Of a stretch of DNA of 37,170 nucleotides, positions 413 through 23,323 are shown in pieces. The DNA lies in the IMG/VR virus record IMGVR_UViG_3300025723_002011, positions 1-37,170 of that record; one strand, written 5' to 3'. Numbering within the stretch: position 1 is the stretch's first letter; each line of letters starts with the position of its first letter. This DNA comes from a virus. Taxonomy: Duplodnaviria; Caudoviricetes. The position numbers and the translations under genes are program-made. Below the pieces are notes generated by a model that searched no databases, had not been told where the DNA came from, and saw only the letters and a program-made list of their open reading frames with translations.

Positions 413-1357
413 ATGATCACAGTGGTTAAACGTAACGGAGAAAGAGTACCGTTAGACATTTCAAAAATCCAAAGACAGGTGGCGTATGATTGTAGAGGAA
501 TTGACAGCGTGAGTCCGTCAATGATTGAGATCAAAGCCCAGTTGGAACTGCATGATGGAATGAGTACCAAGACCATAGATGAATTGTTGCTCAAGGCCAT
601 GGTAAATTTAATTGACGAAAATGAAAACCCCGAGATCAACAACACCAATTATCAGTATGTGGCGGGCAGGCAAAGAGTCAGCATGCTGCGAAAAGAAGTT
701 TACGGAACCTACACACCTCCAAAACTTTTCTCAATTGTGAAAAAAAATATCGAACTTGGCATGTATACTCCTGCTCTTTTAGAATGGTATACCGAAGACG
801 AATGGAATATCATTGATCTTTTTATAGATCACAGCAAGGACGAAGATTATACCTATGCAGCTATCGCACAGCTGACAGAAAAATATCTAGTGCAAAATCG
901 TGCCACTGGTCAGGTTTTTGAAACTCCCCAAGTGCGATACGCTGTTGCAGCCGCCACAGCGTTCCATGCCGAGCCCAAAGATGCTAGATTGAAATTGGTC
1001 AAAGAATATTATGAATGTGCCAGCGACGGCCATTTTACCTTGGCCACTCCTGTGCTTGCCGGATTGGGAACCACTACCAAACAATTTTCCAGCTGCGTTT
1101 TAATCAGCAGTGACGATACTTTGGACAGCATCTTTGCAGCCGGCGAAATGATGGCCAAATATGCATCAAAACGAGCCGGAATTGGTCTGGAAATAGGCAG
1201 AATACGACCCTTAGGGGCGCCAATTCGCAATGGCGAGATCAAACATACAGGACTAGTGCCCTTTTTAAAGAAATGGTTCGCAGATCTACGTAGTTGTTGT
1301 GTAACTCCTGACACTTGGGTAGAAATTATAGACGAAGGAGATTCTGAGGATAAGTAA
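413..1357 (+). CDS. nrdA: Ribonucleotide reductase class Ia alpha subunit, N-terminal part (ATP cone), fused to a 19-aa N-intein
   Basis: ATP cone MITVVKRNG..; ETPQ, TLATPVLAG, QFSSCVLI, SKRAGIG, HTGLVPFLK motifs. RNR similarity stops at DLRSC and is followed by CVTPDTWVEIIDEGDSEDK*. Confidence 0.95.
   Translation: MITVVKRNGERVPLDISKIQRQVAYDCRGIDSVSPSMIEIKAQLELHDGMSTKTIDELLLKAMVNLIDENENPEINNTNYQYVAGRQRVSMLRKEVYGTYTPPKLFSIVKKNIELGMYTPALLEWYTEDEWNIIDLFIDHSKDEDYTYAAIAQLTEKYLVQNRATGQVFETPQVRYAVAAATAFHAEPKDARLKLVKEYYECASDGHFTLATPVLAGLGTTTKQFSSCVLISSDDTLDSIFAAGEMMAKYASKRAGIGLEIGRIRPLGAPIRNGEIKHTGLVPFLKKWFADLRSCCVTPDTWVEIIDEGDSEDK
1298..1354 (+). mobile_element. Split intein N-fragment (IntN, 19 aa)
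   Basis: CVTPDTWVEI matches intein block A (C-x-x-x-D-T-x-V) and ends in an acidic tail before the stop at 1355-1357. Confidence 0.88.
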
Positions 1358-1385
1358 TAGTTTTTCGCATACCAGCATAAATACT

Positions 1386-2495
1386 ATGGAGGTATGCGAA
1401 ATGCTAGATTATCTAAATGAATCATATAATGGATCAATAACAAATATGCTAACAAATTCTGCTTATTATTGTTATACTTTAAAAGACGCCAAAACTGGAA
1501 AGTTTTATTCGGGGTCTCGTGGAGTAGAAGGCAGCAATAAGCACGATTTGCTGGTAAAATATTTTACTAGTTCAACTGTAGTAGATTTTAAAGAAAAACT
1601 AAAAAAGTTCCCCTATACATTTGAATACCGAGTGGAATATTTTAAGACTAGGAGTGATGCCTTTGTCGCAGAAAAAGCGTTTCATCAAAAGCATCAAGTT
1701 GGTAGAAATCCTAGTTTTTTAAATTCTCTTACTGCCGGCGGAACAAACTGCGGAGCAGGTTCGGTTTTGTGTAAAGATATAGAAGGCAACACATATCGAG
1801 TGTCAGTAGAAGAATTTGCTACAGGAAACCATATGCATGTTTCAAAAGGCATGATGAACATTCGAACAGAATTAGGGATTAAAAAGATATTTACTACTGA
1901 CTTTGATCCTAATATTCACTCTACTGAATTTAAAGATTATGTCTTAGCATTGGATACTGTTACTGAGAAAACTTGTAGAATTCCAAAATCTGAGTTTGAT
2001 AGTGACAGCAGGTATGTAGGAATAACAAAAGGATTAGTAGTTGCGTATGACACCGTTACTAAATCAAGAGTATCTATTACCAAAGATAAATTTAAAAATT
2101 CAAATGGTAGATATGTAGGAAACACGTTTGGTCTAGTACCGGTAGTAGATAAGATCACCGGTGAACGGAAACTAGTGAAAAAAGAACACTACGATAAAAA
2201 GTTATATGAGCATCATAATACCGGGAATGTAGCAGTTTACTCAATTCCTAAAAGAAAAAATGTTACAATAAGCAAAGAAGAATATCAAACAAATTCGAAT
2301 GACTATGCTAATTTAGCCACTAAAGTTTTCTACAAAGTAGACGGTAAGTTTTTTAAGTCAAAAGATTTACTAGATCAATATTACAGAAAAACTAGAGGTA
2401 AAACAGTATTAAAGGTCAGCCAATTTGAAATGTCTACTAAGTTTAACGACATTGAAACAATAACAAAAGAAGATTATGAAAATAGTAAAAACTAA
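1386..2495 (+). CDS. Free-standing GIY-YIG/Seg-like homing endonuclease with a repeated C-terminal putative DNA-binding module (likely start ATG 1401)
   Basis: YYCYTLKD..KFYSGSR (GIY-YIG variant), YFTSS, AFVAEKAFHQ..FLN; degenerate ~30-aa repeats (DTVT..RYVG). GGAGG at 1388-1392 suits ATG 1401. Lies between the nrdA halves. Confidence 0.75.
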   Translation: MEVCEMLDYLNESYNGSITNMLTNSAYYCYTLKDAKTGKFYSGSRGVEGSNKHDLLVKYFTSSTVVDFKEKLKKFPYTFEYRVEYFKTRSDAFVAEKAFHQKHQVGRNPSFLNSLTAGGTNCGAGSVLCKDIEGNTYRVSVEEFATGNHMHVSKGMMNIRTELGIKKIFTTDFDPNIHSTEFKDYVLALDTVTEKTCRIPKSEFDSDSRYVGITKGLVVAYDTVTKSRVSITKDKFKNSNGRYVGNTFGLVPVVDKITGERKLVKKEHYDKKLYEHHNTGNVAVYSIPKRKNVTISKEEYQTNSNDYANLATKVFYKVDGKFFKSKDLLDQYYRKTRGKTVLKVSQFEMSTKFNDIETITKEDYENSKN

Positions 2496-2886
2496 AAAAA
2501 TTCAAATTAAAGACCTAGCAGTAGGTATGAAGATTAAGAGTAAAGACGAAACAGGCACGATTGTTTTTAAAACAATTACCAATAAATGGGAAACTGTTGT
2601 CAAACAAGAAGACCAAGTTCGATTGGAATTTGAAAATGGTGTAGTACTAAATTGTTCCGTAAATCATCCAATAATGTGCCTGGATCAGACGGGATCATTT
2701 GTTCAAAAATTACCAAAGACTATTAACACTGAAGATCGAGTATTAACCGAAGGAGGATTCACTAGGTTATTAACTGCTGACTTTGTGCAAGACAATGATG
2801 AAAATTATATCGATATCACGGTAGAAGATACTCACACATTTTTTGCATCTTCTAATAAAGAAGGCCCAATGGTTCTGACTCACAAT
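2476..2886 (+). mobile_element. Split intein C-fragment (IntC, 137 aa, no endonuclease domain)
   Basis: Basic N-terminus MKIVKTKKIQIKDL, block B CSVNHPI, block F YIDITVEDTHTFF, block G LTHN followed by Ser+1 (AGC 2887-2889). Confidence 0.9.
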
Positions 2887-4332
2887 AGCCAAGGTGGCAT
2901 ACGTAATGCCAGTTGCACTGTGACATTTCCAATTTGGCATGCTCAATTTGAAGATTTGATTGTGTTGAAAAACAATCAAGGAACCGAAGAAAACCGTGTG
3001 CGACAAATGGATTATTCAGTAGTGGTATCATCACTGTTTTGGCGCCGTTACAAAAACAATGAAAATATAACATTGTTTGATCCGCATGAGGTTCCTGATC
3101 TTTACGAGGCCTATTATAGAGACAGTAAGGAATTTGAGAAACTTTATCATTTTTACGAACAGGATAAGTTTGTCAAGAAGAAAGTGGTTTCTGCTGAAGA
3201 AATCTTTAAAAATGGAATACTCAAAGAACGAACAGATACTGGCAGGATTTATCTTGTCAATATTGACAATGTGATTAATCAAGGACCCTTTAATACCTTG
3301 ACTGATCCTATATATCAAAGTAATCTCTGCCAAGAAATCTTGTTGCCCACTCGTCCATTCCAACGTATTGAAGACGAAAACGGCAGGATCTCTCTTTGCA
3401 CTCTTGGATCAATCAATTGGGGAGCTTTTACCAGTCCTCAACAGATGCGCAAGGCCTGTCGAGTGCTGGTTCGTAGTTTGAGCAATCTTTTGAGCTATCA
3501 AGACTTTCTATCTGTGCAAAGCCAATTGGCCAATCAAGATTTTGAACCACTAGGAGTTGGCATCACCAATCTGGCCTATTGGCATGCACGCCGCAATCTC
3601 AAATATGGTGAATCATCTGCTCTCAAAGAAGTCAAACGATGGATGGAGCATCAGGCTTTTTATCTTACCGAAATCAGTGTGGAACTGGCACAGGAGCGAG
3701 GATCCTGCAAACGCAGTCAACATACCTATTACGGACAAGGAATATTTCCTTGGGAAAGGCGTAACCCAAATGTGGACGAACTTACCAATTTTGAACCCAG
3801 CGGCAATTTGGACTGGGAAAATTTGCGGGTTAACATGAAACAGTACGGCATACGCAATGCTACTCTAATGGCCATTGCTCCTGTAGAATCCAGTTCAGTA
3901 GTACTTAACAGTACCAATGGTATTGAAATGCCTATGGAATTGATCAGTGTCAAGGAAAGCAAAGCGGGCAGCTTTGTCCAGGTAGTGCCGGAATACAAAC
4001 GTCTAAAGAATAGATATCAATTGATGTGGAATCAAAAGGACTGTGTGGAATACTTGAAAACGGCTGCAGTGTTAGCTGCCTATATTGATCAAAGCATTTC
4101 TACCAATACCTTTTATTCTCCGGCACATTTCAAGGACGGTAAGATTCCAGGCACGCTGATCGCCAAAAATTTAATGTTGGCCTATCGTTGGGGGTTGAAA
4201 ACCATCTACTACAGTTTAATAAGTAAAACTGGCAGCAAGAATATTTTGAATACACACAGCGAAGTTACAAAGGTCATCGTTCCTATTAAATCAATCGAGG
4301 ATGAGGATTCATGCGAATCCTGTAAACTATAA
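2476..4332 (+). CDS. nrdA: C-intein (137 aa) fused to the C-terminal part of RNR class Ia alpha subunit
   Basis: After VLTHN the protein resumes SQGGIRNASCTVTFPIWH; catalytic SNLCQEI, LCTLGSIN, AIAPVESSS, KTIYY and C-terminal CESCKL are present. Confidence 0.95.
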   Translation: MKIVKTKKIQIKDLAVGMKIKSKDETGTIVFKTITNKWETVVKQEDQVRLEFENGVVLNCSVNHPIMCLDQTGSFVQKLPKTINTEDRVLTEGGFTRLLTADFVQDNDENYIDITVEDTHTFFASSNKEGPMVLTHNSQGGIRNASCTVTFPIWHAQFEDLIVLKNNQGTEENRVRQMDYSVVVSSLFWRRYKNNENITLFDPHEVPDLYEAYYRDSKEFEKLYHFYEQDKFVKKKVVSAEEIFKNGILKERTDTGRIYLVNIDNVINQGPFNTLTDPIYQSNLCQEILLPTRPFQRIEDENGRISLCTLGSINWGAFTSPQQMRKACRVLVRSLSNLLSYQDFLSVQSQLANQDFEPLGVGITNLAYWHARRNLKYGESSALKEVKRWMEHQAFYLTEISVELAQERGSCKRSQHTYYGQGIFPWERRNPNVDELTNFEPSGNLDWENLRVNMKQYGIRNATLMAIAPVESSSVVLNSTNGIEMPMELISVKESKAGSFVQVVPEYKRLKNRYQLMWNQKDCVEYLKTAAVLAAYIDQSISTNTFYSPAHFKDGKIPGTLIAKNLMLAYRWGLKTIYYSLISKTGSKNILNTHSEVTKVIVPIKSIEDEDSCESCKL

Positions 4333-7824: not shown

Positions 7825-7926
7825 ATGGCACTATATCTATCAATCACCACCGGCATTATTGTGTGTTCAGTAGGCACCATAGGAGTTTTACTCACTATGA
7901 TATCAATCCATTGTTTTAAAAAATAA
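7825..7926 (+). CDS. Small hydrophobic single-TM protein (33 aa)
   Basis: GGAGG RBS, TATAAATA at 7786-7793; MALYLSITTGIIVCSVGTIGVLLTMISIHCFKK*. Confidence 0.5.
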   Translation: MALYLSITTGIIVCSVGTIGVLLTMISIHCFKK

Positions 7927-7938
7927 CGGTAATATCCA

Positions 7939-7969
7939 TTGCTTTTTGATCATTAAGCTGTTATAAATA
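7939..7969 (+). promoter_or_regulatory. Promoter for tmRNA: TTGCTT-N17-TATAAA overlapping TATAAATA
   Basis: TTGCTT 7939-7944, TATAAATA 7962-7969. Confidence 0.6.
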
Positions 7970-7974
7970 CGCTT

Positions 7975-8260
7975 AATGGTAGTAAACTCTTAGCTAAAAG
8001 CGTTTTGGACGCAACTCATAAACGACGTAAACATTGAACTAAAATCAGTTTGGACCGGGGTTCGATTCCCCGATGCTCCACCAACTATGGGGCATATCGG
8101 TTTCGACAGGCTGCGTAATACACTCAATGCGTCCGAAAGGTGACTGACGTAATCAGCACAAAAAAAAGTAAATGCAAACGATAGCAATTACCACATGGCA
8201 CTAGCCGCCTAATAACGGTGTAGTTTTCCAGAGTTAACCGCTTGGTAACAGAAAGGTTAG
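7975..8260 (+). ncRNA. ssrA: Circularly permuted (two-piece) tmRNA, tag (A)ANDSNYHMALAA; outer ends approximate
   Basis: T-arm CGGGG-TTCGATT-CCCCG (8056-8072) and ATGCTCC-A-CCA (8073-8083) precede the 5' acceptor strand GGGGCAT (8089-8095), giving a 7-bp stem with G3.U; tag frame 8174-8212 ends LAA*. Confidence 0.93.
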
Positions 8261-8289
8261 TAATAGGAGCTTCGGCTCCTATTATTTTT
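8261..8289 (+). terminator. Rho-independent terminator
   Basis: TAATAGGAGC-TTCG-GCTCCTATTA followed by a T run. Confidence 0.9.
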
Positions 8290-8297
8290 ATTTTTCA

Positions 8298-8334
8298 ATA
8301 GACATTGCCTATTGCTGCAATAGAATCAAAGTAT
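8298..8334 (+). promoter_or_regulatory. OxyR-type binding site upstream of ahpC
   Basis: ATAG-acattgc-CTAT-tgctgca-ATAG-aatcaaa-GTAT: one mismatch to ATAG-N7-CTAT-N7-ATAG-N7-CTAT. Confidence 0.75.
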
Positions 8335-8440
8335 TGAAAAACCATCAAAAATCCATAGATTTAGTGTGTATAAAATGCTAAATTAGTGTGATAGTTAATA
8401 ATAGGTATTAACACACAACTACACACAATAGGGGATTACC

Positions 8441-8986
8441 ATGAAAACAGTAGGAGATACGTTAGAAGCGTTTGAGATTGTTGGAGTCAAACCGGGACAG
8501 CCGGATGATGCTTTCTTTACCATCGACCAAAACAGTTTTGCAGGCAAGTGGAAGGTGATTGTTTACTACCCGAAGGACTTTACCTTTGTTTGCCCTTCAG
8601 AGATCGTGGCCTACGACAAACTAAATCAGGATTTTGCCGATCGCGATGCAGTGCTGCTCACCGGCAGTACCGATAATGAATTCTGCAAGGTGGCTTGGCA
8701 GAAGGCTCATCCAGATTTGGCCAAGATTACCCATACACAGTTTGCAGATACCGCGCGGGACGAACGCAGCCTTATCAATCAATTGGGCGCGTTCTATGCT
8801 CCTGCTGGCGCCGCTCTGCGTGCCACATTTGTCGTTGATCCCAACAATGTTATTCAGCATGTCACTGTCAACAACTTGGATGTGGGTCGAAATCCTGAAG
8901 AAACACTTCGTGTATTGGATTCCTGCCAAACGGGAGAACTTTGTGCATGTAATCGTGCCATTGGCGGCCAAACACTGTCGGTATAA
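8441..8986 (+). CDS. ahpC: Peroxiredoxin (alkyl hydroperoxide reductase C)
   Basis: YPKDFTFVCPSEI peroxidatic motif, VGRNPEETLRVLD, ELCAC resolving region. Confidence 0.95.
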   Translation: MKTVGDTLEAFEIVGVKPGQPDDAFFTIDQNSFAGKWKVIVYYPKDFTFVCPSEIVAYDKLNQDFADRDAVLLTGSTDNEFCKVAWQKAHPDLAKITHTQFADTARDERSLINQLGAFYAPAGAALRATFVVDPNNVIQHVTVNNLDVGRNPEETLRVLDSCQTGELCACNRAIGGQTLSV

Positions 8987-8997
8987 GGAGAAACGTC

Positions 8998-9504
8998 ATG
9001 AGTTTTATTGAAACAGTCAAGAATTCTTTGCCGGATTACGCCAAAGACATCAGGCTCAATCTCGATGCGGTGTTGCTGAGAAGCACACTGACGCCTGAAG
9101 TGGCCATGGGCTGTGCAGTAGCAGCTTTGGCCGCTGCCGGCAATGGCAAAGTATTGTCGGCCCTGTTGAGCGATGACCCGATTCATGCCGATGCTGCCAT
9201 GACGGCTGCCAGTTTAATGGCAATGACCAATACCTGGTATCCCTACGTGGAAATGACCAATGATCCGCAACTGTCAGGACTTCCTGCACAGTTGCGCATG
9301 AACTCCATTGTCACGCACGGGGGCACCAGCAAGGCCAACTTTGAGGCATTTAGCCTAGCAGCCAGCATTGTGGGCAAATGTCATTTTTGCGTCAAGGCGC
9401 ACTATGACACACTGCGAGCAGAAGGATACACTGTGGAACAGCTTCGTGACGTTGGACGAATCGCTGCTGTCATGAACAGTGTGGCCAAAGTGTTGGTGGG
9501 CTAG
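8998..9504 (+). CDS. ahpD: Alkylhydroperoxidase AhpD
   Basis: LPDYAKDIRLNL, MAMTNTWY, SIVGKCHFCVKAH (CxxC..H); directly follows ahpC. Confidence 0.93.
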   Translation: MSFIETVKNSLPDYAKDIRLNLDAVLLRSTLTPEVAMGCAVAALAAAGNGKVLSALLSDDPIHADAAMTAASLMAMTNTWYPYVEMTNDPQLSGLPAQLRMNSIVTHGGTSKANFEAFSLAASIVGKCHFCVKAHYDTLRAEGYTVEQLRDVGRIAAVMNSVAKVLVG

Positions 9505-15003: not shown

Positions 15004-15382
15004 CATAACACTGGTAACTCCGCCGGACATTTACCAAAACGATCAAGAAAGCATTTTGTTTTTTGACCTAACTGAAAAAGAACAAGATGATGTAATACAT
15101 TGGTTAAAAAACATTGATTTGAGTATCAATATTTATTTTTATCAAGGAGAGCCAAATGTTGCTTGGGTATTGCATTCATTGTCTAGTGCCAATTTTAAAT
15201 ATTGTAACCTGAACAATATGTCAGCTGTAACAAGTTATCTGGCTGGCTATATTTTATCAAAATCAAATGTCTTTTACAGCACCAACGATGTAAATGTTGC
15301 TGAACTATATAGCCATATTAATCTTAATAGAGTTACTGACGCCGTTGATTTTTTAGAAAGGATTTTTAGTGGAAAAGAATAA
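14993..15382 (+). CDS. Hypothetical protein
   Basis: Overlaps both neighbours in an operon-like arrangement. Confidence 0.7.
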   Translation: MPANITLVTPPDIYQNDQESILFFDLTEKEQDDVIHWLKNIDLSINIYFYQGEPNVAWVLHSLSSANFKYCNLNNMSAVTSYLAGYILSKSNVFYSTNDVNVAELYSHINLNRVTDAVDFLERIFSGKE

Positions 15383-16610
15383 AACACATGCCTGTGACTT
15401 TTGCGGTAAATCAAAAGAGGATGTTGGCAAGTTAATTGTTGGCGATACCTCTGCAATTTGTAATGATTGCATTGAACTTTGCGTGAGCATATTAGAAGAA
15501 GAAAAAATTAAAAAATTCTCACCCGATGATGGAACTGCTGTACTCAACCCGGCCAAGATCAAAGAATACTTGGATGAGTATGTGATTGGTCAAGAATATG
15601 CAAAAATGGTTTTAAGCGTGGCAGTGTGCCAACACTTTAAGCGTATTTCTAATCCCAGCAAAGATATACAACTAGAAAAAACCAATGTGCTTATGTTGGG
15701 ACCAACCGGCTGCGGAAAAACCATGCTGGCAAAAAAATTAGCAGATTATCTAGATGTACCGTTTGCCATTTGTGATGCTACCAGTATTACCGAAGCAGGC
15801 TACGTGGGCGATGATGTGGAAAGTGTACTTAATCGATTGATGTCAGTGGCCGATGGTGACCTTGAAAAAGTAAAAAACGGCATTATTTACATTGACGAAA
15901 TTGACAAGCTCAGTCGCAAAGGGGAAAGCACCAGTTTAACTAGAGATGTAGGCGGCGAGGGTGTGCAGCAGGGTTTATTGAAAATGATCGAAGGCACTGT
16001 GGTACGTGTGCCCACTTCGGGAAAGAGAAAACATCCCCGAGGGGATATGGCCGAAATTGATACCAGCAGCATACTGTTTATCTGCGGTGGCGCCTTTGTT
16101 GGTCTAGACAAAATTATAAGCAAAAGATTAGGATCTACATCAACATCCGTGGGCTTCAATGCTGTTGTTACTTCAAGCAAGAAAGAAGATAAAAACTGGG
16201 ACAAGACTGAAACTAAAGATCTTGTCACATACGGAATGATTCCCGAGTTTGTTGGCAGATTTGGTCTAATCACTCATGTAGAAGAATTGGTTGTGTCAGA
16301 TTTGGTAAGAATACTCAAAGAACCCAAAAACAGTTTGATATTGCAGTATAAATACCTCTTTAATTTGGACGGCATTGAGATAGACTTTGACCAAGATGCA
16401 CTTACAGCCATCGCGGAAAAAGCTAAAAATATGAAAACAAATGCGCGTGGGCTAAAAAATATCCTAGAAAAAATACTGTTACCTTATCAATTTGATGCAG
16501 TGGATTTGGTTGAACGAGGATTAACCAAACTAGTGATAAGTAAAGACACAGTGGACGGTGGGCCCGCGACATTGATTTTTAACAAAAATAAAGTAGAAAA
16601 AATATCATGA
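15369..16610 (+). CDS. clpX: ATP-dependent Clp protease ATP-binding subunit ClpX
   Basis: Zn domain CDFC..CNDC, Walker A GPTGCGKT, GYVG pore loop, IDEIDK, RDVGGEGVQQGLLK, RKH loop, VGF (IGF-like) loop; GTG start. Confidence 0.96.
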   Translation: MEKNKTHACDFCGKSKEDVGKLIVGDTSAICNDCIELCVSILEEEKIKKFSPDDGTAVLNPAKIKEYLDEYVIGQEYAKMVLSVAVCQHFKRISNPSKDIQLEKTNVLMLGPTGCGKTMLAKKLADYLDVPFAICDATSITEAGYVGDDVESVLNRLMSVADGDLEKVKNGIIYIDEIDKLSRKGESTSLTRDVGGEGVQQGLLKMIEGTVVRVPTSGKRKHPRGDMAEIDTSSILFICGGAFVGLDKIISKRLGSTSTSVGFNAVVTSSKKEDKNWDKTETKDLVTYGMIPEFVGRFGLITHVEELVVSDLVRILKEPKNSLILQYKYLFNLDGIEIDFDQDALTAIAEKAKNMKTNARGLKNILEKILLPYQFDAVDLVERGLTKLVISKDTVDGGPATLIFNKNKVEKIS

Positions 16611-16813
16611 AAATATTTGTAAAGGATGGCAACGTGGATGGCGCTTTGAGAAAACTCAAAAAGAAAATTGAGGAAAGTGGCCGATTAATGGAAGTACTCA
16701 AAAGACAAGAGTATGAAAAGCCAACCACTATGAGAAAGAGAAAAGCAGCGGCTGCTAGAGCCAGATGGAAGAAAAAACTTAGAGATCAAAATCTTCCAAA
16801 ATCAACAAGATAA
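16607..16813 (+). CDS. rpsU: Ribosomal protein bS21
   Basis: NVDGALRKLKKK..RQEYEKPTTMRKRKAAAARAR. Confidence 0.92.
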   Translation: MKIFVKDGNVDGALRKLKKKIEESGRLMEVLKRQEYEKPTTMRKRKAAAARARWKKKLRDQNLPKSTR

Positions 16814-16821
16814 ACATTAAT

Positions 16822-16850
16822 TTGACAAATTTCCTTAGATATAATAAAAT
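16822..16850 (+). promoter_or_regulatory. sigma70-type promoter
   Basis: TTGACA-N17-TAAAAT. Confidence 0.7.
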
Positions 16851-16879
16851 ACAAATATTAATTTAAACGGAAAAGATCA

Positions 16880-17401
16880 ATGTCAAAACATTTGATGGTG
16901 GATTTAGAGACGTTGGCTGTGTCTCCTGATGCAGCCATTTTAACTCTCGGAGCTGTGCATTTTGATCCTATGTCACACGTCATGGGAGAAAAACTGTACA
17001 TGCGATTTAATCTTGACGATCAAGACAAATTGAAAAGATACATTGATCCTAATACATTAGATTGGTGGGCCAAACAAGATCCTGCAATCATGGAAGAAGC
17101 TTTTAGTGATCATGATCGAGTGCCTGTAGCTGATGCCATAGATAAATTCCATAAATTTGCATGGGGATGTAAAGGATTTTGGTCACATGGTTCCGTATTT
17201 GATATCGTGATTTTGGAAAATCTTTACCGTCAATTAAAAAGAACTCCTCCCTGGAGCTTCTGGCAGATCCGTGATACCAGAACTATTTTTGATCTTGGTC
17301 ATGATCCTGATATGCCTCAGGAAAGCAAACACGATGCCTTGCAGGATGCTATACGACAGGCTATCGGAGTACAAAATGTTTACAAGTCCCTTAAAAAATG
17401 A
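16880..17401 (+). CDS. DEDDh 3'-5' exonuclease
   Basis: MVDLETL, HGSVFD, RDTRT, HDALQDA. Confidence 0.88.
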   Translation: MSKHLMVDLETLAVSPDAAILTLGAVHFDPMSHVMGEKLYMRFNLDDQDKLKRYIDPNTLDWWAKQDPAIMEEAFSDHDRVPVADAIDKFHKFAWGCKGFWSHGSVFDIVILENLYRQLKRTPPWSFWQIRDTRTIFDLGHDPDMPQESKHDALQDAIRQAIGVQNVYKSLKK

Positions 17402-17958
17402 AAACACAATTTCAATTGTTAGTAGAATCTTTTGATCAGCCGCCCTATCCAAAGATTACACGCAGTGATTTAGGATACCAACAAACACAAGAGCATATAC
17501 AATCAGAAGTTTCGAGATTGGTAGATATATATCGAGCACTTGAGTCGATTGATCAAAAGGCCAGATTGGTGCGCGATGGCATTGATCTTTATTTGCGTAG
17601 ATATCAATCATATACTATTGAGTTTCAAATTGGATCGCATTATCGCCAATGCGGCGTTGATAAAAATGATTGCGATTTTGAGCATGTGATTCCTCAGGCC
17701 AAGATACGAGATATGTTGATACAAGGAAAGCTCACCATTGCACAAGCCATGAATCCTCCCACATGCCTTCTGCATCACGAACATCATAAAAGTCTTAAAA
17801 AAACCGGATGGGCTAGTAAGACACCTAGCCTATGGAACTTTTTTGATAGATATACTGCAATTTTTGATGCAACTTATGAAACCGCTTACGGACAACTAAT
17901 TGAGAACCCGCATGATTGGACTTTGGAAAAACATTATGAATATTTTAATATTACTTAA
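17398..17958 (+). CDS. Hypothetical protein with a possible HNH-like motif
   Basis: DFEHVIP..PTCLLHHEHH; weak similarity only. Confidence 0.6.
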   Translation: MKTQFQLLVESFDQPPYPKITRSDLGYQQTQEHIQSEVSRLVDIYRALESIDQKARLVRDGIDLYLRRYQSYTIEFQIGSHYRQCGVDKNDCDFEHVIPQAKIRDMLIQGKLTIAQAMNPPTCLLHHEHHKSLKKTGWASKTPSLWNFFDRYTAIFDATYETAYGQLIENPHDWTLEKHYEYFNIT

Positions 17959-18370
17959 ACCAACCTAATTTTTTACCTTGAGCTATTCTGCGATCAGATT
18001 CAGCCCGGCTGCCTGGCAGTTTTGCAGCCCACAGTATTATCAAAGCAAAGAATAAGCCCAGTCCTAGACACAATTTCCAATTATGATTTTTCCAATAGAT
18101 CAATATTAAACTGAAATCCATACTTAAAAACATGGCCCATTTGGCCAATGTGGGAAATACACGACCCTGTGACCAATTTTTAATAAATGGACCAAACAAC
18201 TTATGGTTCAGCATGTAATCATGGAAACGTTTGGAGCTTTTGCTGAAACACCATGCTGCTACTAAACTGGGAGTACTCCATGGTAACCCGGGTACAAATG
18301 TCCCTAGATAGGCAATGCCTAAAAACAATATGCCCATTGTAAACCAAAATGCCTTTTTAATTTTTTCCAT
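17951..18370 (-). CDS. ybaN: YbaN/DUF454 family inner-membrane protein
   Basis: LG..VPGLPWSTP..AAWCFSKSSKRFHDYMLNHKLFGPFIKNW. Confidence 0.85.
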   Translation of the reverse strand: MEKIKKAFWFTMGILFLGIAYLGTFVPGLPWSTPSLVAAWCFSKSSKRFHDYMLNHKLFGPFIKNWSQGRVFPTLAKWAMFLSMDFSLILIYWKNHNWKLCLGLGLFFALIILWAAKLPGSRAESDRRIAQGKKLGWFK

Positions 18371-18380
18371 AATAGCTCCT

Positions 18381-18425
18381 TATAAATATTTATCGATTGA
18401 CTATTATGCAATTTTCATTTACACT
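18381..18425. promoter_or_regulatory. Divergent promoter region
   Basis: TATAAATA at 18381-18388 (+), ATAAATA on the minus strand, and TTGACT-N17-TACACT at 18397-18425 (+). Confidence 0.55.
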
Positions 18426-18455
18426 TGCATAATCTTAGATCTTTAGGAGTTTGCT

Positions 18456-18731
18456 GTGAAAATTTGGCATTTTATCAAATGGCAATGGAATAAATTTGAG
18501 CTATATGCAAAGTTTTTTTTAATTAATGCACTTTTAATGATTTTAACAGTGATAATTGCACTGCTTGGATATAAGAAAGCTGCTCTAGAACTGTATGACA
18601 TCACCGAAGCAATGGCGATTGTGATTGTATTGTATTTTATTGTATGGGATGGTATTAAATTTTCATATGCACAGTATCAAAAAGATCAAGAGAGATTGAT
18701 CAGCACCATTAAGGAATCCCATAACAAATGA
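18456..18731 (+). CDS. Hypothetical two-TM membrane protein
   Basis: AGGAG RBS, GTG start, two hydrophobic stretches. Confidence 0.7.
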   Translation: MKIWHFIKWQWNKFELYAKFFLINALLMILTVIIALLGYKKAALELYDITEAMAIVIVLYFIVWDGIKFSYAQYQKDQERLISTIKESHNK

Positions 18732-19540
18732 AAATTTCCTTGGTTTCTGATCTGCATTTAGAAATGGCCTATCAAGAATTGTCTGGCGGAGAAGTTTTAA
18801 TCTTGGGTGGAGATATTGCTGAGTCAAGGCATGTGCAGAATCACTTTCGCGCCGCCGAACTGTGTAGCCATGTGCCTTCTGTTGAACATCGCTGCTGGGA
18901 TTTTTTCCTCCATGAATGTGCCAAATACCAAAAGGTGTTTTATGTGATGGGCAATCACGAACACTATCGAGGCAAATACCACGAGACCAAACAGCTATTG
19001 GAATCCATGATGCCCGCCAACGTGAGCATCTTGGAAAACCAAGCAGTGGAATACGAGGGCGTGATGTTCATGGGTGCCACTCTGTGGACTGATGTGAACC
19101 GAGGAGATCCCGTATCTGCACTGGCTATAAAACAGAACATGAACGATTATCGTGCCATCACAATGTTAAACAGCAAGCAAGAATATCACAAGCTGACTAC
19201 GGACTATACCCAGGGAGTCCACCGCACCACTCTGGAGTATTTCAAGAAAACGCTGGAAGAGCATGCTCACAAGCCGTTCGTGGTAATGACACATCACGCG
19301 CCCAGCCGTCAAAGCATCCATGAAACCTACAAGCATGATTATCACATGAATGGCGGCTATGTTAGCGATCTTGATGATTTTATCTTGGATCATCCTAATA
19401 TACACACCTGGACCCACGGCCACACACATACACCTTTTGACTATAAAATTGGAAACACACGAGTTTTGTGCAATCCGCGGGGCTATGTGCCCTATGAAGC
19501 AGACAACGGATTTGATCCACATTTTACTTTCGAGATTTAA
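18728..19540 (+). CDS. Calcineurin-like metallophosphoesterase
   Basis: SDLHLE, LGGDI, GNHEHY, GATLWTD, THHAPS, HGHTH, CNPRGY. Confidence 0.9.
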   Translation: MKISLVSDLHLEMAYQELSGGEVLILGGDIAESRHVQNHFRAAELCSHVPSVEHRCWDFFLHECAKYQKVFYVMGNHEHYRGKYHETKQLLESMMPANVSILENQAVEYEGVMFMGATLWTDVNRGDPVSALAIKQNMNDYRAITMLNSKQEYHKLTTDYTQGVHRTTLEYFKKTLEEHAHKPFVVMTHHAPSRQSIHETYKHDYHMNGGYVSDLDDFILDHPNIHTWTHGHTHTPFDYKIGNTRVLCNPRGYVPYEADNGFDPHFTFEI

Positions 19541-19747
19541 ATGATCAGTGTAAAGTTAGATAGAGAATATTATCATTTACAGGCCGATATGGAAAAATGG
19601 TGCACAGAAAATCTAGGTCCAGGCATGTGGGGGGATCTTGGGAAAATGCCCGATTGTATTTGGTCAATTGCCAGTAATTTTGGAATTACTTTTTTTACTT
19701 TTAGAACAGAAAAACAGGCCAGCATGTTTTTGTTGAGGTGGTGGTGA
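19541..19747 (+). CDS. Small hypothetical phage protein (FxF..A..F.LRW family)
   Basis: C-terminal FTFRTEKQASMFLLRWW resembles that of 21430..21657. Confidence 0.7.
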   Translation: MISVKLDREYYHLQADMEKWCTENLGPGMWGDLGKMPDCIWSIASNFGITFFTFRTEKQASMFLLRWW

Positions 19748-19890
19748 GTAAAAAAATAGTTAATATCCAGCCTTATATAGATAAGAAAAACAAAGAAAAG
19801 GCTGCTAGAGATAAAATTATAATACCATTCCCGAAATTATTTTTAAAAAATGGGCAATGGACCACAGAAAAACCCAAGGATAAATTATGA
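19744..19890 (+). CDS. Small basic hypothetical protein (48 aa)
   Basis: GTGA and ATGA overlaps with both neighbours; MSKKIVNIQPY..KDKL*. Confidence 0.55.
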   Translation: MSKKIVNIQPYIDKKNKEKAARDKIIIPFPKLFLKNGQWTTEKPKDKL

Positions 19891-20654
19891 AATCTTGCTT
19901 TGTATATCAACCACAGGGATTGGGAGATATTATTTTTGTGCAAAAAATTGTACATCACTATAAATCCTTAGGATATCGAATTATTTTTCCCATTATTGAA
20001 CATTACAAATGGGCTATTCCTTATTTTGAACAATCCAATGTAGAGTTTGTAGTTCTTACCAACGACAGAAAAGTTATTGAACCATTTGAGCACAGCGATC
20101 AAATTACCTATTTGATGCAATCTACAGATGCGTTATTCAGGCGACCTGTGCATGCTTTGGATTTTGTGTATCTTTCCTGCGGTCCGTCAACAATTGATTC
20201 AAATGAGATGATGACATCCAAATATGCTGTTTCAGATGTTGATTACAATGATTGGCAAAAATACGTAAAAATTAATAGGAATATTGAAACAGAATATAAA
20301 CTGTTTTATGATATTTTAGGATTAAGTGATGGAGAAAAATACACTTTAATTAATGAAAAGAGCAGTTCGGAACATATATCAATCAATGATGCTCCGGGTA
20401 AAAATATTAGATTAATTAACATAGAAGGATATTCTTTTTTTGATTGGATTATGGTTATAAAGAACGCCAGTCGCATTATAACGATTGATACATCCATTTG
20501 TTATTTGGCCGAAGTTTATTGTTCAAAAAATATTGATTGCTATATTATTAATAGATACAATACTCCTAGCTTTGTAGATCTTCCAAAAATATTTAAGTTG
20601 CCCTGGAAATACTGCTTAAATAGCGGAGAGGTAAATTTAAATGCAAATATTTGA
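19887..20654 (+). CDS. Putative glycosyltransferase-like protein (GT-B/GT9-like)
   Basis: QGLGDIIF N-terminus; IKNASRIITIDTSICYLA resembles the GT9 DS/DT motif. Confidence 0.6.
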   Translation: MKSCFVYQPQGLGDIIFVQKIVHHYKSLGYRIIFPIIEHYKWAIPYFEQSNVEFVVLTNDRKVIEPFEHSDQITYLMQSTDALFRRPVHALDFVYLSCGPSTIDSNEMMTSKYAVSDVDYNDWQKYVKINRNIETEYKLFYDILGLSDGEKYTLINEKSSSEHISINDAPGKNIRLINIEGYSFFDWIMVIKNASRIITIDTSICYLAEVYCSKNIDCYIINRYNTPSFVDLPKIFKLPWKYCLNSGEVNLNANI

Positions 20655-21420
20655 TCAAATATTAATACAAGGAAGATTGTATCTTGGAGATTGTTTGGTA
20701 ATGTCCGGAATGGTAAATTATTATTCTGATAGATGCGAAATGGTGCATCTTTCTGTTTTTCCTTGGCATTTCAAAACATTGACCTCACTTTACAAAGAAA
20801 ACCCTAGAGTTCGAATAGTTCAAATCACCAGTCTGGATGATGAAAATCGCTATGTGATGCAAAATAATCTTTCTCGCATACGCGCTAACGAGTCGAGTCC
20901 ATCAATAATTTATAAAAATATACTGGTTCACCCCTATTGGGATCTTTTTGTTTATGATTGGTATGAACTTCCTTATAGTACCAGATACAAGTATTTTAGA
21001 GTACCTGGATTTGTGGAGGGAGCCAAAGAACTGCATGATAAGTTATCCCAAGGAGATCCATACATCTTGATACATCGTAGACCGTCTCCTGAACTACCCG
21101 GAGGATTTCCAATGGATGTTGATTGTTTTAGAAAAATCAAAGGACTCCCTGATTATCGAATAATTGAAGTCACTCCTGACATCACAGATGACATGATGCA
21201 GTATGTGGAACTTATTAAAAATGCCAAAGAAATACATTGCGTAGGCAGTAGTTTTCATTGTTTAGTGGACGGCATGACCCAACATACCAATGCAGAACTA
21301 TTTTATCATGATATAAGAAGATTCGCACTAATGCGTATTAATTCTAAATGGAATAATTATCGATGGAATATGGTAGAGTATGGTCCTGGTCTACTAGATA
21401 ACGGGTCCGATATTCCATAA
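20641..21420 (+). CDS. Putative glycosyltransferase-like protein (GT-B/GT9-like)
   Basis: LYLGDCLV; IKNAKEIHCVGSSFHCLVD; probable paralog of the upstream gene. Confidence 0.6.
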   Translation: MQIFDQILIQGRLYLGDCLVMSGMVNYYSDRCEMVHLSVFPWHFKTLTSLYKENPRVRIVQITSLDDENRYVMQNNLSRIRANESSPSIIYKNILVHPYWDLFVYDWYELPYSTRYKYFRVPGFVEGAKELHDKLSQGDPYILIHRRPSPELPGGFPMDVDCFRKIKGLPDYRIIEVTPDITDDMMQYVELIKNAKEIHCVGSSFHCLVDGMTQHTNAELFYHDIRRFALMRINSKWNNYRWNMVEYGPGLLDNGSDIP

Positions 21421-21429
21421 TAGATCATA

Positions 21430-21657
21430 ATGAAAAAGTTTGATTGTTGGCCTCCGCCAAAATGGACCGAAGTAATCATAACGTGGAATGATTTAATGTC
21501 ACGCAATCAATCAGGAATTGTAAACAAAATGTTAGACTGGTTGTATGATCACCCTGGTGATGGATATCATTTACACGGATATAAAAGCACGGAAGGATTT
21601 GCTTTTAGATTTAAAAATCCTCAAGATGCTGTAATATTTGCCTTGAGATGGTCATGA
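21430..21657 (+). CDS. Small hypothetical phage protein (FxF..A..F.LRW family)
   Basis: FRFKNPQDAVIFALRWS. Confidence 0.7.
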   Translation: MKKFDCWPPPKWTEVIITWNDLMSRNQSGIVNKMLDWLYDHPGDGYHLHGYKSTEGFAFRFKNPQDAVIFALRWS

Positions 21658-21670
21658 TTTTTAGTCATCT

Positions 21671-21853
21671 ATGAAATTCAACGCTGGACAATCTTTTGAG
21701 GAATGGGCCATGCAGGTAAAAGCATATGAATACAAACTGGCCCTTAAAAAAATAGCTCAGGGCAAAGATTACCAACAAGTGATGGAAGACATGAGTCGCA
21801 GAATCGTGCAAAAGCTAAATCATGCTAGAATATTGTTAATTAAAAATACTTAA
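21671..21853 (+). CDS. Small protein resembling the glutamyl-tRNA reductase (HemA) dimerisation domain
   Basis: EYKLALKKIAQGKDYQQVMEDMSRRIVQKLNH parallels the HemA C-terminal pattern E..AL..L..G.D...V...L...L..KL.H. Confidence 0.6.
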   Translation: MKFNAGQSFEEWAMQVKAYEYKLALKKIAQGKDYQQVMEDMSRRIVQKLNHARILLIKNT

Positions 21854-21857
21854 TCAC

Positions 21858-21892
21858 TTGACTGCACGGTGTTTTTTCAATTATAATAAATA
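21858..21892 (+). promoter_or_regulatory. sigma70-type promoter with an overlapping ATAAATA motif
   Basis: TTGACT-N18-TATAAT running into AAATA. Confidence 0.6.
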
Positions 21893-21974
21893 ATGTTGTA
21901 AAAGACCTATACGGATTTTACACACACGGGCATAGGGCCCATTTGATTCAACTTACTTATTAAAGGAGATTAAT

Positions 21975-22418
21975 ATGAATCAGTTAGTTCGTTTTGACAC
22001 TAATACTTTGAACATGCTAAACAAGGCATTGCTGGGTTTTGACCATTTGTTTACTGATTTCGAACATCGTTTTGCTAATCAAATTAACAGTAGCTATCCG
22101 CCGTATAATATTTTAAAAGTTGACAAGGATACTTACGAGATCCAAGTTGCCGTTACCGGGTTTGATCCAGCGGAAATTTCCGTTGAAATCGACCAAAATC
22201 AGTTGATCGTGAAGGGTGAAATTAAAAGCGACAAGGAAGACGAGGTCCAATATATTCATCGCGGACTGGCTGGGCGTAACTTTACCAGAGTGTTTCCGCT
22301 TGCGGAGCATCTAGAGGTACGCGAAGGAACCATTAAAAATGGTGTACTCAGTATCAGAATTGATCGAGTAGTTCCTGACTCTTTAAAGCCTCGTTTACTT
22401 AAGATTAAAGCTCTTTAA
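21975..22418 (+). CDS. Small heat-shock protein (Hsp20/IbpA family)
   Basis: YPPYNI, AVTGF, YIHRGLAGRNFTRVF, NGVLSI. Confidence 0.95.
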   Translation: MNQLVRFDTNTLNMLNKALLGFDHLFTDFEHRFANQINSSYPPYNILKVDKDTYEIQVAVTGFDPAEISVEIDQNQLIVKGEIKSDKEDEVQYIHRGLAGRNFTRVFPLAEHLEVREGTIKNGVLSIRIDRVVPDSLKPRLLKIKAL

Positions 22419-22427
22419 TCGTTGCGG

Positions 22428-22456
22428 AGAGAGTGGAGATAACTCCACTCTCTTTC
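22428..22456 (+). terminator. Hairpin, probable terminator or processing stem
   Basis: AGAGAGTGGAG-ATAA-CTCCACTCTCT followed by a short T-rich tail. Confidence 0.7.
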
Positions 22457-22484
22457 TATATCAAATCAAAAAAACGGAGTACAC

Positions 22485-22787
22485 ATGACCGACGTTGAGG
22501 TAAAGAAAAAAGACAGTGTAAAAAATCGTATCAAAGAACCCAAAAAATACAAGGTAGTTGTGCTCAATGACGATTATACTCCCATGGATTTTGTGGTGGC
22601 TATATTGATGCAGATTTTTAGACATTCCGAATCTCAAGCCATGTCTTTGACCTTGCAGATTCACAACGAAGGTTCTGCTGTAGCTGGAATTTACAACTAC
22701 GAAATAGCAGAACAAAAAGGAATTGAAGCCACTGGTGTAGCTAGAGAAAATGGTCATCCTTTGCAAATCAAGGTGGAATCAGAATGA
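22485..22787 (+). CDS. clpS: ATP-dependent Clp protease adaptor ClpS
   Basis: YKVVVLNDDYTPMDFVV, IHNEGSAVAGIY, EIAEQK, HPL. Confidence 0.95.
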   Translation: MTDVEVKKKDSVKNRIKEPKKYKVVVLNDDYTPMDFVVAILMQIFRHSESQAMSLTLQIHNEGSAVAGIYNYEIAEQKGIEATGVARENGHPLQIKVESE

Positions 22788-23323
22788 GTTTGAAAGATTT
22801 AACCAAAGACAGCCATACTGCCGCAGAAAAAACCAAATTTATGAAAGCGGCATTTCAAGGTCGCATGACTCAATCGATATGGGCCGATTGGACTTATCAA
22901 AAAACATTATTTTATAATGCCATAGAAAGTTCTGCTAGCGCGGTAAATTTATTATTAGGAATGAATGAGTTAAAGAGAACATTCCTATTGTTGGAAGATT
23001 ATAAAGTCATGGCAAAGGCCGAAACGGCCACCTATTACAAAAAAAGTGTTATCGAATATTATCAATATATCATGAATCTATACCCTGACAAGTCACGTAT
23101 CATGGCACATTTATATACATGGCATATGGGTGATTTGCACGGCGGTCAGATGATTAAAAAGATTTTACCATTCAGTCATCTCAGTTTGGAATTTACTCGG
23201 CCGGAAGAATTAAAAATAGCCATTAGAGAAAAACTCAATGACACCATGGCAGACGAAGCTAATACAGCATTTAAATGGGCAATCAAGATGATGGAAGAAT
23301 ATGACAACCAGTTTGATATTTGA
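22784..23323 (+). CDS. Heme oxygenase (biliverdin-producing)
   Basis: LKDLTKDSHTAAE (proximal His), AHLYTWHMGDLHGGQMIKK, EANTAF. Confidence 0.9.
   Translation: MSLKDLTKDSHTAAEKTKFMKAAFQGRMTQSIWADWTYQKTLFYNAIESSASAVNLLLGMNELKRTFLLLEDYKVMAKAETATYYKKSVIEYYQYIMNLYPDKSRIMAHLYTWHMGDLHGGQMIKKILPFSHLSLEFTRPEELKIAIREKLNDTMADEANTAFKWAIKMMEEYDNQFDI

What the first reader, a model, noticed from the sequence alone, without database searches (positions are those of the whole stretch)
7975..8289. Circularly permuted two-piece tmRNA in a phage-like genome, with only 5 nt between CCA and G1
Seen: the normal 3' end (T-arm 8056-8072, ATGCTCCACCA 8073-8083) lies upstream of the normal 5' end (GGGGCAT 8089-8095), separated by ACTAT. 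The acceptor stem is 7 bp with the G3.U alanine determinant. Inter-piece helices can be drawn: CAGGCTG (8107-8113) with CAGTTTG (8046-8052), TCAAT (8124-8128) with ATTGA (8033-8037), GCGTCCGAAA (8129-8138) with TTTTGGACGC (8003-8012). The tag ANDSNYHMALAA* lies at 8174-8212, followed by a possible pseudoknot and a UUCG terminator. Known: permuted tmRNAs occur in Alphaproteobacteria, some marine cyanobacteria and a betaproteobacterial group. Inference: a phage-borne permuted form that may be an independent lineage; the 5-nt spacer is a tight substrate for RNase P and 3' processing.
Basis: partly seen in the sequence, partly recalled or inferred. Interest (0 to 1): 0.88.

Follow-up and report, generated by a model that had tools for sequence, protein, structure and literature searches.

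The report
Phage split tmRNA with homing scar
A large freshwater phage carries a two-piece ribosome-rescue RNA gene (tmRNA) of a known kind, whose 5-base spacer is common in related phages and bacteria; its one unusual feature is a spare copy of the gene's first 39 bases, likely the scar of a selfish DNA-cutting gene that still sits at that spot in a related phage.

Summary
The permuted tmRNA is real (ARAGORN; Rfam permuted 120 bits, beta 116, alpha 67, cyano and one-piece below cut-off) and not an assembly artefact. Neither headline claim is new. Phage two-piece tmRNAs are published (PMC9004378). Spacers of 4-5 nt are common: 23 of 62 distinct viral genes, and 4 nt in many Rhodocyclales chromosomes. 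It is a beta-type gene in a phage-restricted sub-clade; an independent permutation is not supported. Only one other of 59 testable viral genes has such a copy (L008/L115). That gene shares an identical 59-nt core with the window and carries a MobE-like HNH endonuclease between the orphan and working arms. The window is a chimera (breakpoint near 8132) with an 11-nt scar where that nuclease sits: likely a homing event followed by nuclease loss. It wins in folding, but it is not the conserved, covarying helix. The scan noted phage two-piece tmRNAs with cargo in the spacer on other DNA, but not this upstream layout.

The parts
7962..7969 (+). Candidate promoter: TATAAATA, the T4-type late promoter consensus (recalled); it also reads as an extended -10 box with TTGCTT at 7939-7944
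   Evidence: Seen in the sequence. Not reported by the sigma-70 scan. ATAAATA lies just upstream of several relatives. Function inferred.
7974..8012 (+). Orphan copy of the acceptor piece's 5' arm (arm A), ending at the base of the T-stem
   Evidence: 36/39 identical to the working arm of nuclease-less relative L142, 34-35/39 to L124, L126, L130, L279 and L287, and 33/39 to the orphan arm of L115.
8013..8023 (+). 11-nt scar where relative L115 has 488 nt holding a 153-aa HNH/NUMOD3 endonuclease gene
   Evidence: Pfam HNH and NUMOD3 above cut-off; PHROG 655 homing endonuclease, E 1e-23. Loss of the nuclease is inferred.
8020..8055 (+). Working 5' arm of the acceptor piece (arm B), with inter-piece helix strands 8024-8028, 8033-8037 and 8046-8052
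   Evidence: Covariation; closest to L008 of 42 relatives.
8056..8072 (+). T-arm (CGGGG / TTCGATT / CCCCG)
   Evidence: 100% paired in 38 rows.
8073..8083 (+). Acceptor 3' strand, discriminator A and encoded CCA; predicted 3' end of the acceptor piece
8084..8088 (+). 5-nt intervening sequence ACTAT, predicted to be removed
   Evidence: the same ACTAT is in L008, L279 and L287.
8089..8106 (+). Acceptor 5' strand (G1 = 8089, G3.U70) and D-loop analogue with a 3-nt rather than 4-nt link before GG
   Evidence: 3-nt link in 6 of 32 distinct viral and 1 of 68 distinct bacterial loci.
8050..8108 (+). 59-nt tract identical to the endonuclease-carrying allele L115
   Evidence: tRNA-like domain 51/51 to L008, at most 82% to the other 41 relatives.
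8107..8133 (+). Coding-piece strands of the inter-piece helices (8107-8113, 8124-8128, 8129-8133); the donor-like tract ends at about 8131-8133
8140..8159 (+). PK1-derived hairpin GTG-A-CTGA-CGTAA-TCAG-CAC shared with Rhodocyclales and phage relatives
   Evidence: 95.9% paired, 5 of 7 pairs with both-sided changes; variants listed.
8174..8212 (+). Tag reading frame ANDSNYHMALAA*, followed by a second TAA
8228..8261 (+). Likely PK2-type pseudoknot: CCAG 8228-8231 with TTGG 8242-8245; GTTAACC 8233-8239 with GGTTAGT 8255-8261
   Evidence: 24 of 43 clade members carry the anchor; the second stem varies in step (GACC/GGTC, GACT/AGTC, AACC/GGTT), but the margin over cross-pairings is small (5.9 against 5.2 bp).
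8259..8286 (+). Intrinsic-terminator-like hairpin with UUCG loop and U run
   Evidence: near-identical with compensatory changes in syntenic L287.

Best explanation
This is a beta-type, circularly permuted tmRNA gene of a large freshwater phage, predicted to work as a two-piece ribosome-rescue RNA, and it carries a spare 39-base 5' arm that is likely the scar of a homing-endonuclease insertion whose nuclease was later lost. Shown: gene anatomy, covarying helices, tag, chimeric make-up, and the nuclease between orphan and working arms in relative L115. Inferred function: one transcript from about 7975 to the terminator; host RNase P cuts at G8089; the 5-nt trailer left after the encoded CCA is trimmed by 3' exonucleases; the acceptor piece is alanylated through G3.U70; the pieces stay paired; with SmpB (host's, or elsewhere in the unseen 90% of the genome) it tags stalled proteins with ANDSNYHMALAA. 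Inferred history: in a permuted gene the conserved T-arm lies only about 40 nt from the 5' end. A cassette of HNH gene + new 5' arm + variant T-arm/acceptor could therefore insert at the T-stem base, restore the gene and strand the old arm upstream. Repair copied donor sequence up to about 8132, and the nuclease gene was later deleted, leaving 11 nt.
For: (identity, beta type). (90.2% of cells paired; 22 of 36 pairs with both-sided changes; above all 500 shuffles and all slid controls). (4-nt spacers in single-copy chromosomal genes; in the family draw all 7 short spacers go with an encoded CCA and all 14 long ones without). (MobE-like HNH/NUMOD3 gene between orphan and working arm in L115, with its own ATAAATA inside a hairpin over the start codon). 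(of 59 testable distinct viral genes the two top arm-duplication scores are L008, 48, and the window copy L013, 30; next 26). (arm B, tRNA-like domain and helix strand closer to L008 than to any of 41 others; arm A, hairpin, tag and tail closer to 41, 30, 34 and 28 of 41 others). (MaxChi break 8131-8133, 0 of 5000 permutations against L287 and against L010). (L279 and L287 are syntenic with the window and have one arm only). PMC13096335 passages: T4/T6 SegB cuts within tRNA genes and donor alleles are cut poorly.
Against: No RNA data: processing, charging and tagging are untested. The nuclease-carrying state is one allele (four contigs with no difference in the nuclease gene or tmRNA; L118 differs only by an upstream tandem copy), so the history rests on one pair of alleles. 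The window's duplication score (30) is only a little above background (26); it is the 36/39 match to relatives' working arms that establishes the orphan. MaxChi against L279 is weak (197 of 5000) and puts the break elsewhere. Outside the 59-nt core, window and donor are only about 70% alike, so the event is old or the core is held by constraint. Of 22 other loci with relatives of this nuclease, none has the layout; one (L305) lies head-to-head with a permuted tmRNA without a duplicated arm. In L115 the last 23 nt of orphan and working arm are nearly the same, so only the T-arm/acceptor is recoded. The unconstrained fold of the window precursor misses two conserved helices.
Confidence: 0.62

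Rival explanations
1. Functional two-piece tmRNA, but the spare arm and the chimera come from ordinary recombination or tandem duplication between phage tmRNA alleles; the nuclease entered the gap later in L115 as a passenger.
For: These loci recombine freely (L279 itself has a different 3' half). Relatives of the nuclease sit in many contexts, including tRNA arrays. L118 shows a tandem copy of the arm region near its contig end.
Against: Both orphan arms stop at the same place, 1-2 nt into the T-stem. The only other allele with an orphan arm is also the nearest in the core and the only one with a nuclease there. The scar retains CATAAA, matching the nuclease's promoter/stop junction in L115 (six letters, suggestive only).
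Confidence: 0.22
2. The orphan arm has been co-opted: the RNA uses the 10-11-bp helix 8002-8012/8129-8139 in place of the ancestral 5-bp helix, giving an acceptor piece about 45 nt longer than in relatives.
For: Pair probabilities near 1 and 3.3 kcal/mol in its favour; 11 bp with at most one G.U is reached in 1 of 500 shuffles.
Against: 33 of 41 working arms from unrelated alleles form 9 bp with the same segment, so the complement follows from the conserved TTYGGACG motif. With any number of G.U pairs 51 of 500 shuffles reach it. GACGT/GCGTC is kept by compensatory change relative to L008. No variation exists to test the new helix.
Confidence: 0.2
3. The gene is a decaying or misfolded relic (or a decoy) that does not rescue ribosomes.
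For: The unconstrained fold loses helices 8046-8052/8107-8113 and 8033-8037/8124-8128 (probabilities at most 0.06); the D-loop link is one base shorter than usual.
Against: All conserved elements are intact: 7/7 acceptor, G3.U70, T-loop, an open tag ending in LAA, a terminator, and compensatory changes in every helix. The 3-nt link recurs in 6 of 32 viral genes.
Confidence: 0.1
4. One reading: an independent, phage-born permutation of tmRNA with an exceptionally tight spacer.
For: No cellular gene sampled exceeds 68% identity; the clade of about 43 genes is viral apart from one 1.5-kb MAG contig; the deep tree cannot place it.
Against: Same junction as cellular two-piece genes; beta model 115.7 bits against alpha 66.8 and cyano 46.4; mean identity 0.646 to beta, 0.619 cyano, 0.603 alpha; shared hairpin and 5' start with Rhodocyclales; 4-nt spacers in Rhodocyclales.
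Confidence: 0.06

Closest known systems
Betaproteobacterial two-piece tmRNA (Rfam RF01850; general model RF04321; Rhodocyclales)
   Same: Permuted order and junction, tRNA-like domain, three inter-piece helices, PK1-derived hairpin, AND...LAA tag, 4-5-nt spacer with encoded CCA.
   Different: Phage-borne; 65% mean identity; scores 116 bits against 160-311 for the cellular hits; 3-nt D-link; extra orphan 5' arm.
Phage-encoded two-piece tmRNAs (Methylophilales phage Melnitz, pelagimyophages, cyanophages, phiCbK-like; PMC9004378)
   Same: Complete permuted ssrA in an aquatic phage.
   Different: Melnitz's gene is reported as alpha-like with a glutamine riboswitch. This one is beta-like, freshwater, with no riboswitch hit. 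No cultured phage among 50,697 records matches more than 17% of it.
Free-standing homing endonucleases of T4-like phages (MobE; SegB in the tRNA region; intronless homing)
   Same: The relative's HNH/NUMOD3 protein resembles MobE (31-34% identity) and sits beside a tRNA-like gene; SegB cuts within tRNA genes (PMC13096335 passages).
   Different: Inserted inside the tmRNA gene with a replacement 5' arm; absent from the window itself; cleavage untested.
Genomic islands integrating into tmRNA genes with a replacement fragment (PMC11915505 mentions the site use; the fragment-replacement detail is recalled)
   Same: Insertion near the T-arm with a duplicated gene fragment that keeps the gene whole.
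   Different: Mirror image: the 5' arm is replaced because the gene is permuted; the agent is a nuclease, and no integrase was seen beside it.

Membership tests
Permuted (two-piece) tmRNA | 3' tRNA-like segment upstream of the 5' segment, separated by an intervening sequence | tested here: met
Permuted (two-piece) tmRNA | 7-bp acceptor stem, G3.U70, discriminator A, T-arm | tested here: met
Permuted (two-piece) tmRNA | Open tag frame ending in hydrophobic/Ala residues | tested here: met
   ANDSNYHMALAA*.
Permuted (two-piece) tmRNA | Inter-piece helices supported by covariation | tested here: met
Permuted (two-piece) tmRNA | Processed into two RNAs, alanylated, tags stalled proteins | not testable with these tools
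   Needs RNA and bench data.
beta_tmRNA RF01850 | Score above the curated cut-off and above the other permuted models | tested here: met
   115.7 against cut-off 84; alpha 66.8; cyano 46.4.
beta_tmRNA RF01850 | Common descent with cellular beta genes to the exclusion of alpha/cyano | tested here: inconclusive
   Deep forks open, bootstrap unsettled; identities favour beta only slightly.
cyano_tmRNA RF01851 / one-piece RF00023 | Score above cut-off | tested here: not met
   46.4 < 70; 27 < 47.
Free-standing homing endonuclease cassette | Intact nuclease gene at the locus | tested here: not met
   Absent from the window (11-nt gap); present in L115. The window can only be a relic.
Free-standing homing endonuclease cassette | Co-converted tract with donor sequence around the site | tested here: met
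   (strong against L287 and L010, weak against L279).
Free-standing homing endonuclease cassette | Enzyme cuts nuclease-less alleles and spares its own | not testable with these tools
   Needs an in vitro cleavage assay.

The most novel reading that the evidence does not exclude
A homing endonuclease cassette invades permuted phage tmRNA genes at the base of the T-stem without an intron, by bringing its own 5' arm and a recoded, cut-resistant tRNA-like domain. In this phage the nuclease has since been deleted and the stranded old arm has been recruited as a new 10-11-bp inter-piece helix that replaces the ancestral one.
Probability: 0.2. Interest if true: 0.6.

Novelty: new variant of a known kind. 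Interest (0 to 1): 0.36.

Why it matters
What it adds is modest. It gives a named, testable pair (L115 nuclease; L142 or L287 target alleles; the window as post-loss state) for intron-free homing into a structured RNA gene by 5'-arm replacement, which only a permuted gene makes cheap. The link between 4-nt spacers and an encoded CCA (7 of 7, against 0 of 14 long spacers) also suggests two maturation routes within one family.

Tried and rejected
No RNA holder was listed among 24 runs; this says nothing on expression. blastn against cultured phages found only short T-arm or terminator matches. The single metagenome scan was mostly filled by non-tmRNA hits: of 80 loci (66 distinct) only 2 distinct ones parsed as this permuted gene, the window type and the donor type; most others are tRNA-Ala genes or their 3' fragments, and L233 is an unrelated permuted gene. 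I considered derivation of the core from tRNA-Ala and set it aside as probable convergence, since alanine acceptors and T-arms have few free positions. One search added five chance hits in a coding sequence. One search added two chance hits (L278, L284). L049 is a tRNA followed by a one-piece gene, not a permuted gene. The tree (all 62 viral, 23 cellular rows from the short-spacer scan and order draw, 12 of 24 alpha rows) did not resolve deep forks. My first spacer parse gave 2 nt by slipping in a G run and was corrected to 4 nt. The two hairpin rows were off by one and are not used. The helix registers were corrected before the count. The AhpC search gave no host name. The window's NrdA is closest to Xanthomonas and Ralstonia phages (58-65%); the host stays unknown. 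The supplement of PMC11915505 gave no hit for three terms, and the 97,179-sequence database itself was not seen and may hold this gene type. Sharkady and Williams 2004 is not held, so the spacer of the experimentally studied Dechloromonas gene is unverified here.

Full report
Observation. ARAGORN calls a permuted tmRNA at 7991-8303 with tag ANDSNYHMALAA. Rfam gives RF04321 (permuted) 120.3 bits and RF01850 (beta) 115.7; run one at a time, alpha scores 66.8, cyano 46.4 (below cut-off) and the one-piece model 27 and 21.4 in two pieces. The acceptor stem has 7 of 7 pairs with G3.U70. The record is a linear virus record estimated 10% complete. Its AhpC protein occurs on contigs of up to 284 kb, and the holders are freshwater or lake metagenomes (rows with at least half the words: 11, three of them possible sources). 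Of 51 ORFs scanned, none hit SmpB; the gene set is that of a large phage (NrdAB, rpS21, ClpX, ClpS, Hsp20, haem oxygenase, bilin reductase, glycosylation genes). The order of the pieces is not an assembly artefact: L116, L117 and L226 are identical to the window over the stretches compared, and one contig of run X5 spans 7964-8700 without a difference. These may all come from one habitat and campaign.

Is a phage two-piece tmRNA new? No. PMC9004378 (passages of the main text; 30 of 53 'permuted' rows of its supplementary table) describes one in phage Melnitz and lists 53 of 133 unique phage tmRNAs as permuted by ARAGORN; some of those calls may be false (my inference). PMC11915505 (parts 1-3 of 5) counts 11,946 permuted and 79 phage sequences. 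PMC7162821 (passages) reports tmRNA and SmpB in huge phages. PMC3985003 and PMC3978253 (passages) give the standard account of processing and function.

Is the 5-nt spacer unusual? No. A pattern allowing 2-30 nt found 42 viral loci; 27 of 42 (18 of 32 distinct) have 4-5 nt, two of them copies of the window's allele. Adding loci found by the 5' arm, which does not select on spacer, gives 23 of 62 distinct viral genes with 4-5 nt and the rest 6-86 nt. In the bacterial collection a 2-8-nt pattern found 72 loci: 65 with 4 nt, 4 with 3 and 3 with 5 (one, L049, is a false parse). 58 of the 72 titles name Rhodocyclales taxa, two of them complete chromosomes. In an even draw from that family, 22 of 61 genomes had a beta-type hit and 21 parsed: 7 have a 4-nt spacer, all with encoded CCA (one is the centre genome, chosen for its short spacer), and 14 have 24-48 nt, none with encoded CCA. 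Alpha-type genes have 22-57 nt (24 of 29 loci parsed). The likely route for short spacers is RNase P at G1 followed by exonucleolytic trimming to the encoded CCA; this is inferred.

Lineage. The gene belongs to a clade of about 43 phage genes that start TAATGGTNGTAAAC and score above the beta cut-off where tested (L008, L010, L119, L124, L142, L279, L287). Mean identity to the window is 0.672 for this clade (41), 0.646 for cellular beta (55), 0.619 for cyano (2) and 0.603 for alpha (24). The PK1-derived hairpin GTG-A-CTGA-CGTAA-TCAG-CAC is a double-compensated form of the Rhodocyclales GCG-A-CGGA-CGTAA-TCCG-CGC. On 38 aligned genes (the window, 17 phage, 20 bacterial, all short-spacer) 90.2% of cells pair and 22 of 36 pairs change on both sides, above all shuffles and slid controls (relatedness inflates the shuffle test). 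The 97-row tree joins the window with L008 (100/95) and leaves deep forks open. I read it as a phage-restricted branch of the beta type, not a separate permutation, though common descent is not proven. The host is unknown; a proteobacterium is likely from the NrdA neighbours and the tmRNA type, but Melnitz shows that phage tmRNA type need not match the host.

Positions 7974-8012 are a second copy of the acceptor piece's 5' arm: 36 of 39 letters match the working arm of L142 and 34-35 those of five others. The arm that actually adjoins the T-arm is 8020-8055, and its GACGT pairs with GCGTC at the place where relatives have GGTAGT/GCTACC, GGTTGT/GCAACC or GGTCGT/GCGACC. Of 62 distinct viral genes, 59 had upstream DNA to test; the top duplication scores are L008 (48) and the window's copy (30), and the next is 26. 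L008 (= L115) is also the nearest relative in the core: 59 identical letters at 8050-8108. Between its orphan and working arms lie 488 nt encoding a 153-aa protein with HNH and NUMOD3 domains, PHROG 655 homing endonuclease, MobE-like. It is preceded by ATAAATA inside a hairpin that covers the start codon. The window has 11 nt there. Both orphan arms stop 1-2 nt into the T-stem.

Chimera. Segment by segment against 42 relatives, arm B, the tRNA-like domain and the helix strand are closer to L008 than to any of the other 41. Arm A, the hairpin, the tag and the tail are closer to 41, 30, 34 and 28 of the 41. MaxChi places a break at 8131-8133 with 0 of 5000 permutations as strong against L287 and against L010. 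Against L279, whose own 3' half differs, the signal is weak (197 of 5000) and elsewhere. L279 and L287 share the window's flanking genes and have one arm only.

Mechanism. Function (inferred, about 0.85): a normal two-piece tmRNA supporting ribosome rescue during infection, possibly from a late promoter (TATAAATA, 7962-7969; consensus recalled). History (inferred, about 0.65): a nuclease cassette cut a resident allele near the T-arm. Because the gene is permuted, only about 40 nt lie upstream of that point, so a cassette carrying a new arm and a variant core restores the gene and strands the old arm. Conversion ran to about 8132 and the nuclease was then deleted. T4/T6 SegB, which cuts inside tRNA genes, is the nearest precedent read here (PMC13096335, passages). 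Against this: one donor allele only; about 70% identity outside the core; none of 22 other loci with relatives of this nuclease has the layout, although three lie in tRNA arrays and one lies head-to-head with a permuted tmRNA.

The third helix. ViennaRNA prefers 8003-8012/8129-8138 to the conserved helix by 3.3 kcal/mol, and the whole precursor folds well above shuffles (z -3.5). But 33 of 41 working arms from other alleles would form 9 bp with the same segment, so the complement needs no selection. The two helices exclude each other, and probing must decide.

Novelty. Listings from four literature searches (titles and abstract starts only) showed no description of an endonuclease inserted into a tmRNA gene with a replacement 5' arm; subscription papers and the tmRNA database files were not visible. 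The scan's own notes hold several phage two-piece tmRNAs with cargo, including nucleases, inside the spacer, and one nuclease with a duplicated gene start, but no look-alike of this sequence. These notes are unchecked leads. Verdict: the finding as stated is a new member of a known kind; the orphan arm and its nuclease-carrying relative make it a modest new variant. Interest 0.36.

Noticed in passing
window 413-4332: nrdA is in two ORFs (413-1357, 2476-4332) with a 369-aa ORF between them. The first ends just after a Cys-start segment and the second begins with a Hint domain ending in HN: it looks like a split intein with a free-standing ORF between the halves, a 'fractured gene' layout (recalled).
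   Followed up: no
window 7825-7926: Unlisted 33-aa hydrophobic ORF with a GGAGG ribosome-binding site just upstream of the tmRNA promoter; syntenic L279 and L287 have a different 47-aa hydrophobic ORF at the same place.
   Followed up: no
L119-L163 (e.g. L120, L133, L150, L155): Near-identical phage tmRNAs differ by presence or absence of 51-86-nt spacer inserts, many closed by a stem.
   Followed up: no
L124-L131, L142, L144, L153: Phage relatives with altered T-loops (GTGCGA, GGCAGTT in place of GTTCGA), possibly recoding against nucleases.
   Followed up: no
L053, L066: Permuted tmRNAs with 5-nt spacers in MAGs titled Gloeobacteraceae and Aphanocapsa lilacina; L053 scores 158 bits on the cyano model.
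   Followed up: partly
L313-L333: In one bacterial family, 4-nt spacers always go with an encoded CCA (7 of 7) and 24-48-nt spacers never do (0 of 14).
   Followed up: partly
window 8056-8095: T-stem and acceptor stem are the same as in many metagenomic tRNA-Ala genes; treated as convergence.
   Followed up: partly
L118 (reverse strand, first 170 nt): 83-nt tandem copy that includes the orphan arm, near the contig end; real amplification or assembly effect.
   Followed up: no
L300-L302, L305: Relatives of the L115 nuclease lie in tRNA arrays (3 loci) or head-to-head with another permuted tmRNA (L305, no duplicated arm).
   Followed up: partly
window 8441-9504: AhpC-AhpD pair with higher GC (0.44-0.48 against about 0.37) directly downstream; the same pair lies just upstream of the tmRNA in several relatives.
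   Followed up: partly
window 15369-23975: ClpX, rpS21, Hsp20, ClpS, haem oxygenase and a ferredoxin-dependent bilin reductase in one stretch; ClpX could serve tagged proteins (inference).
   Followed up: no
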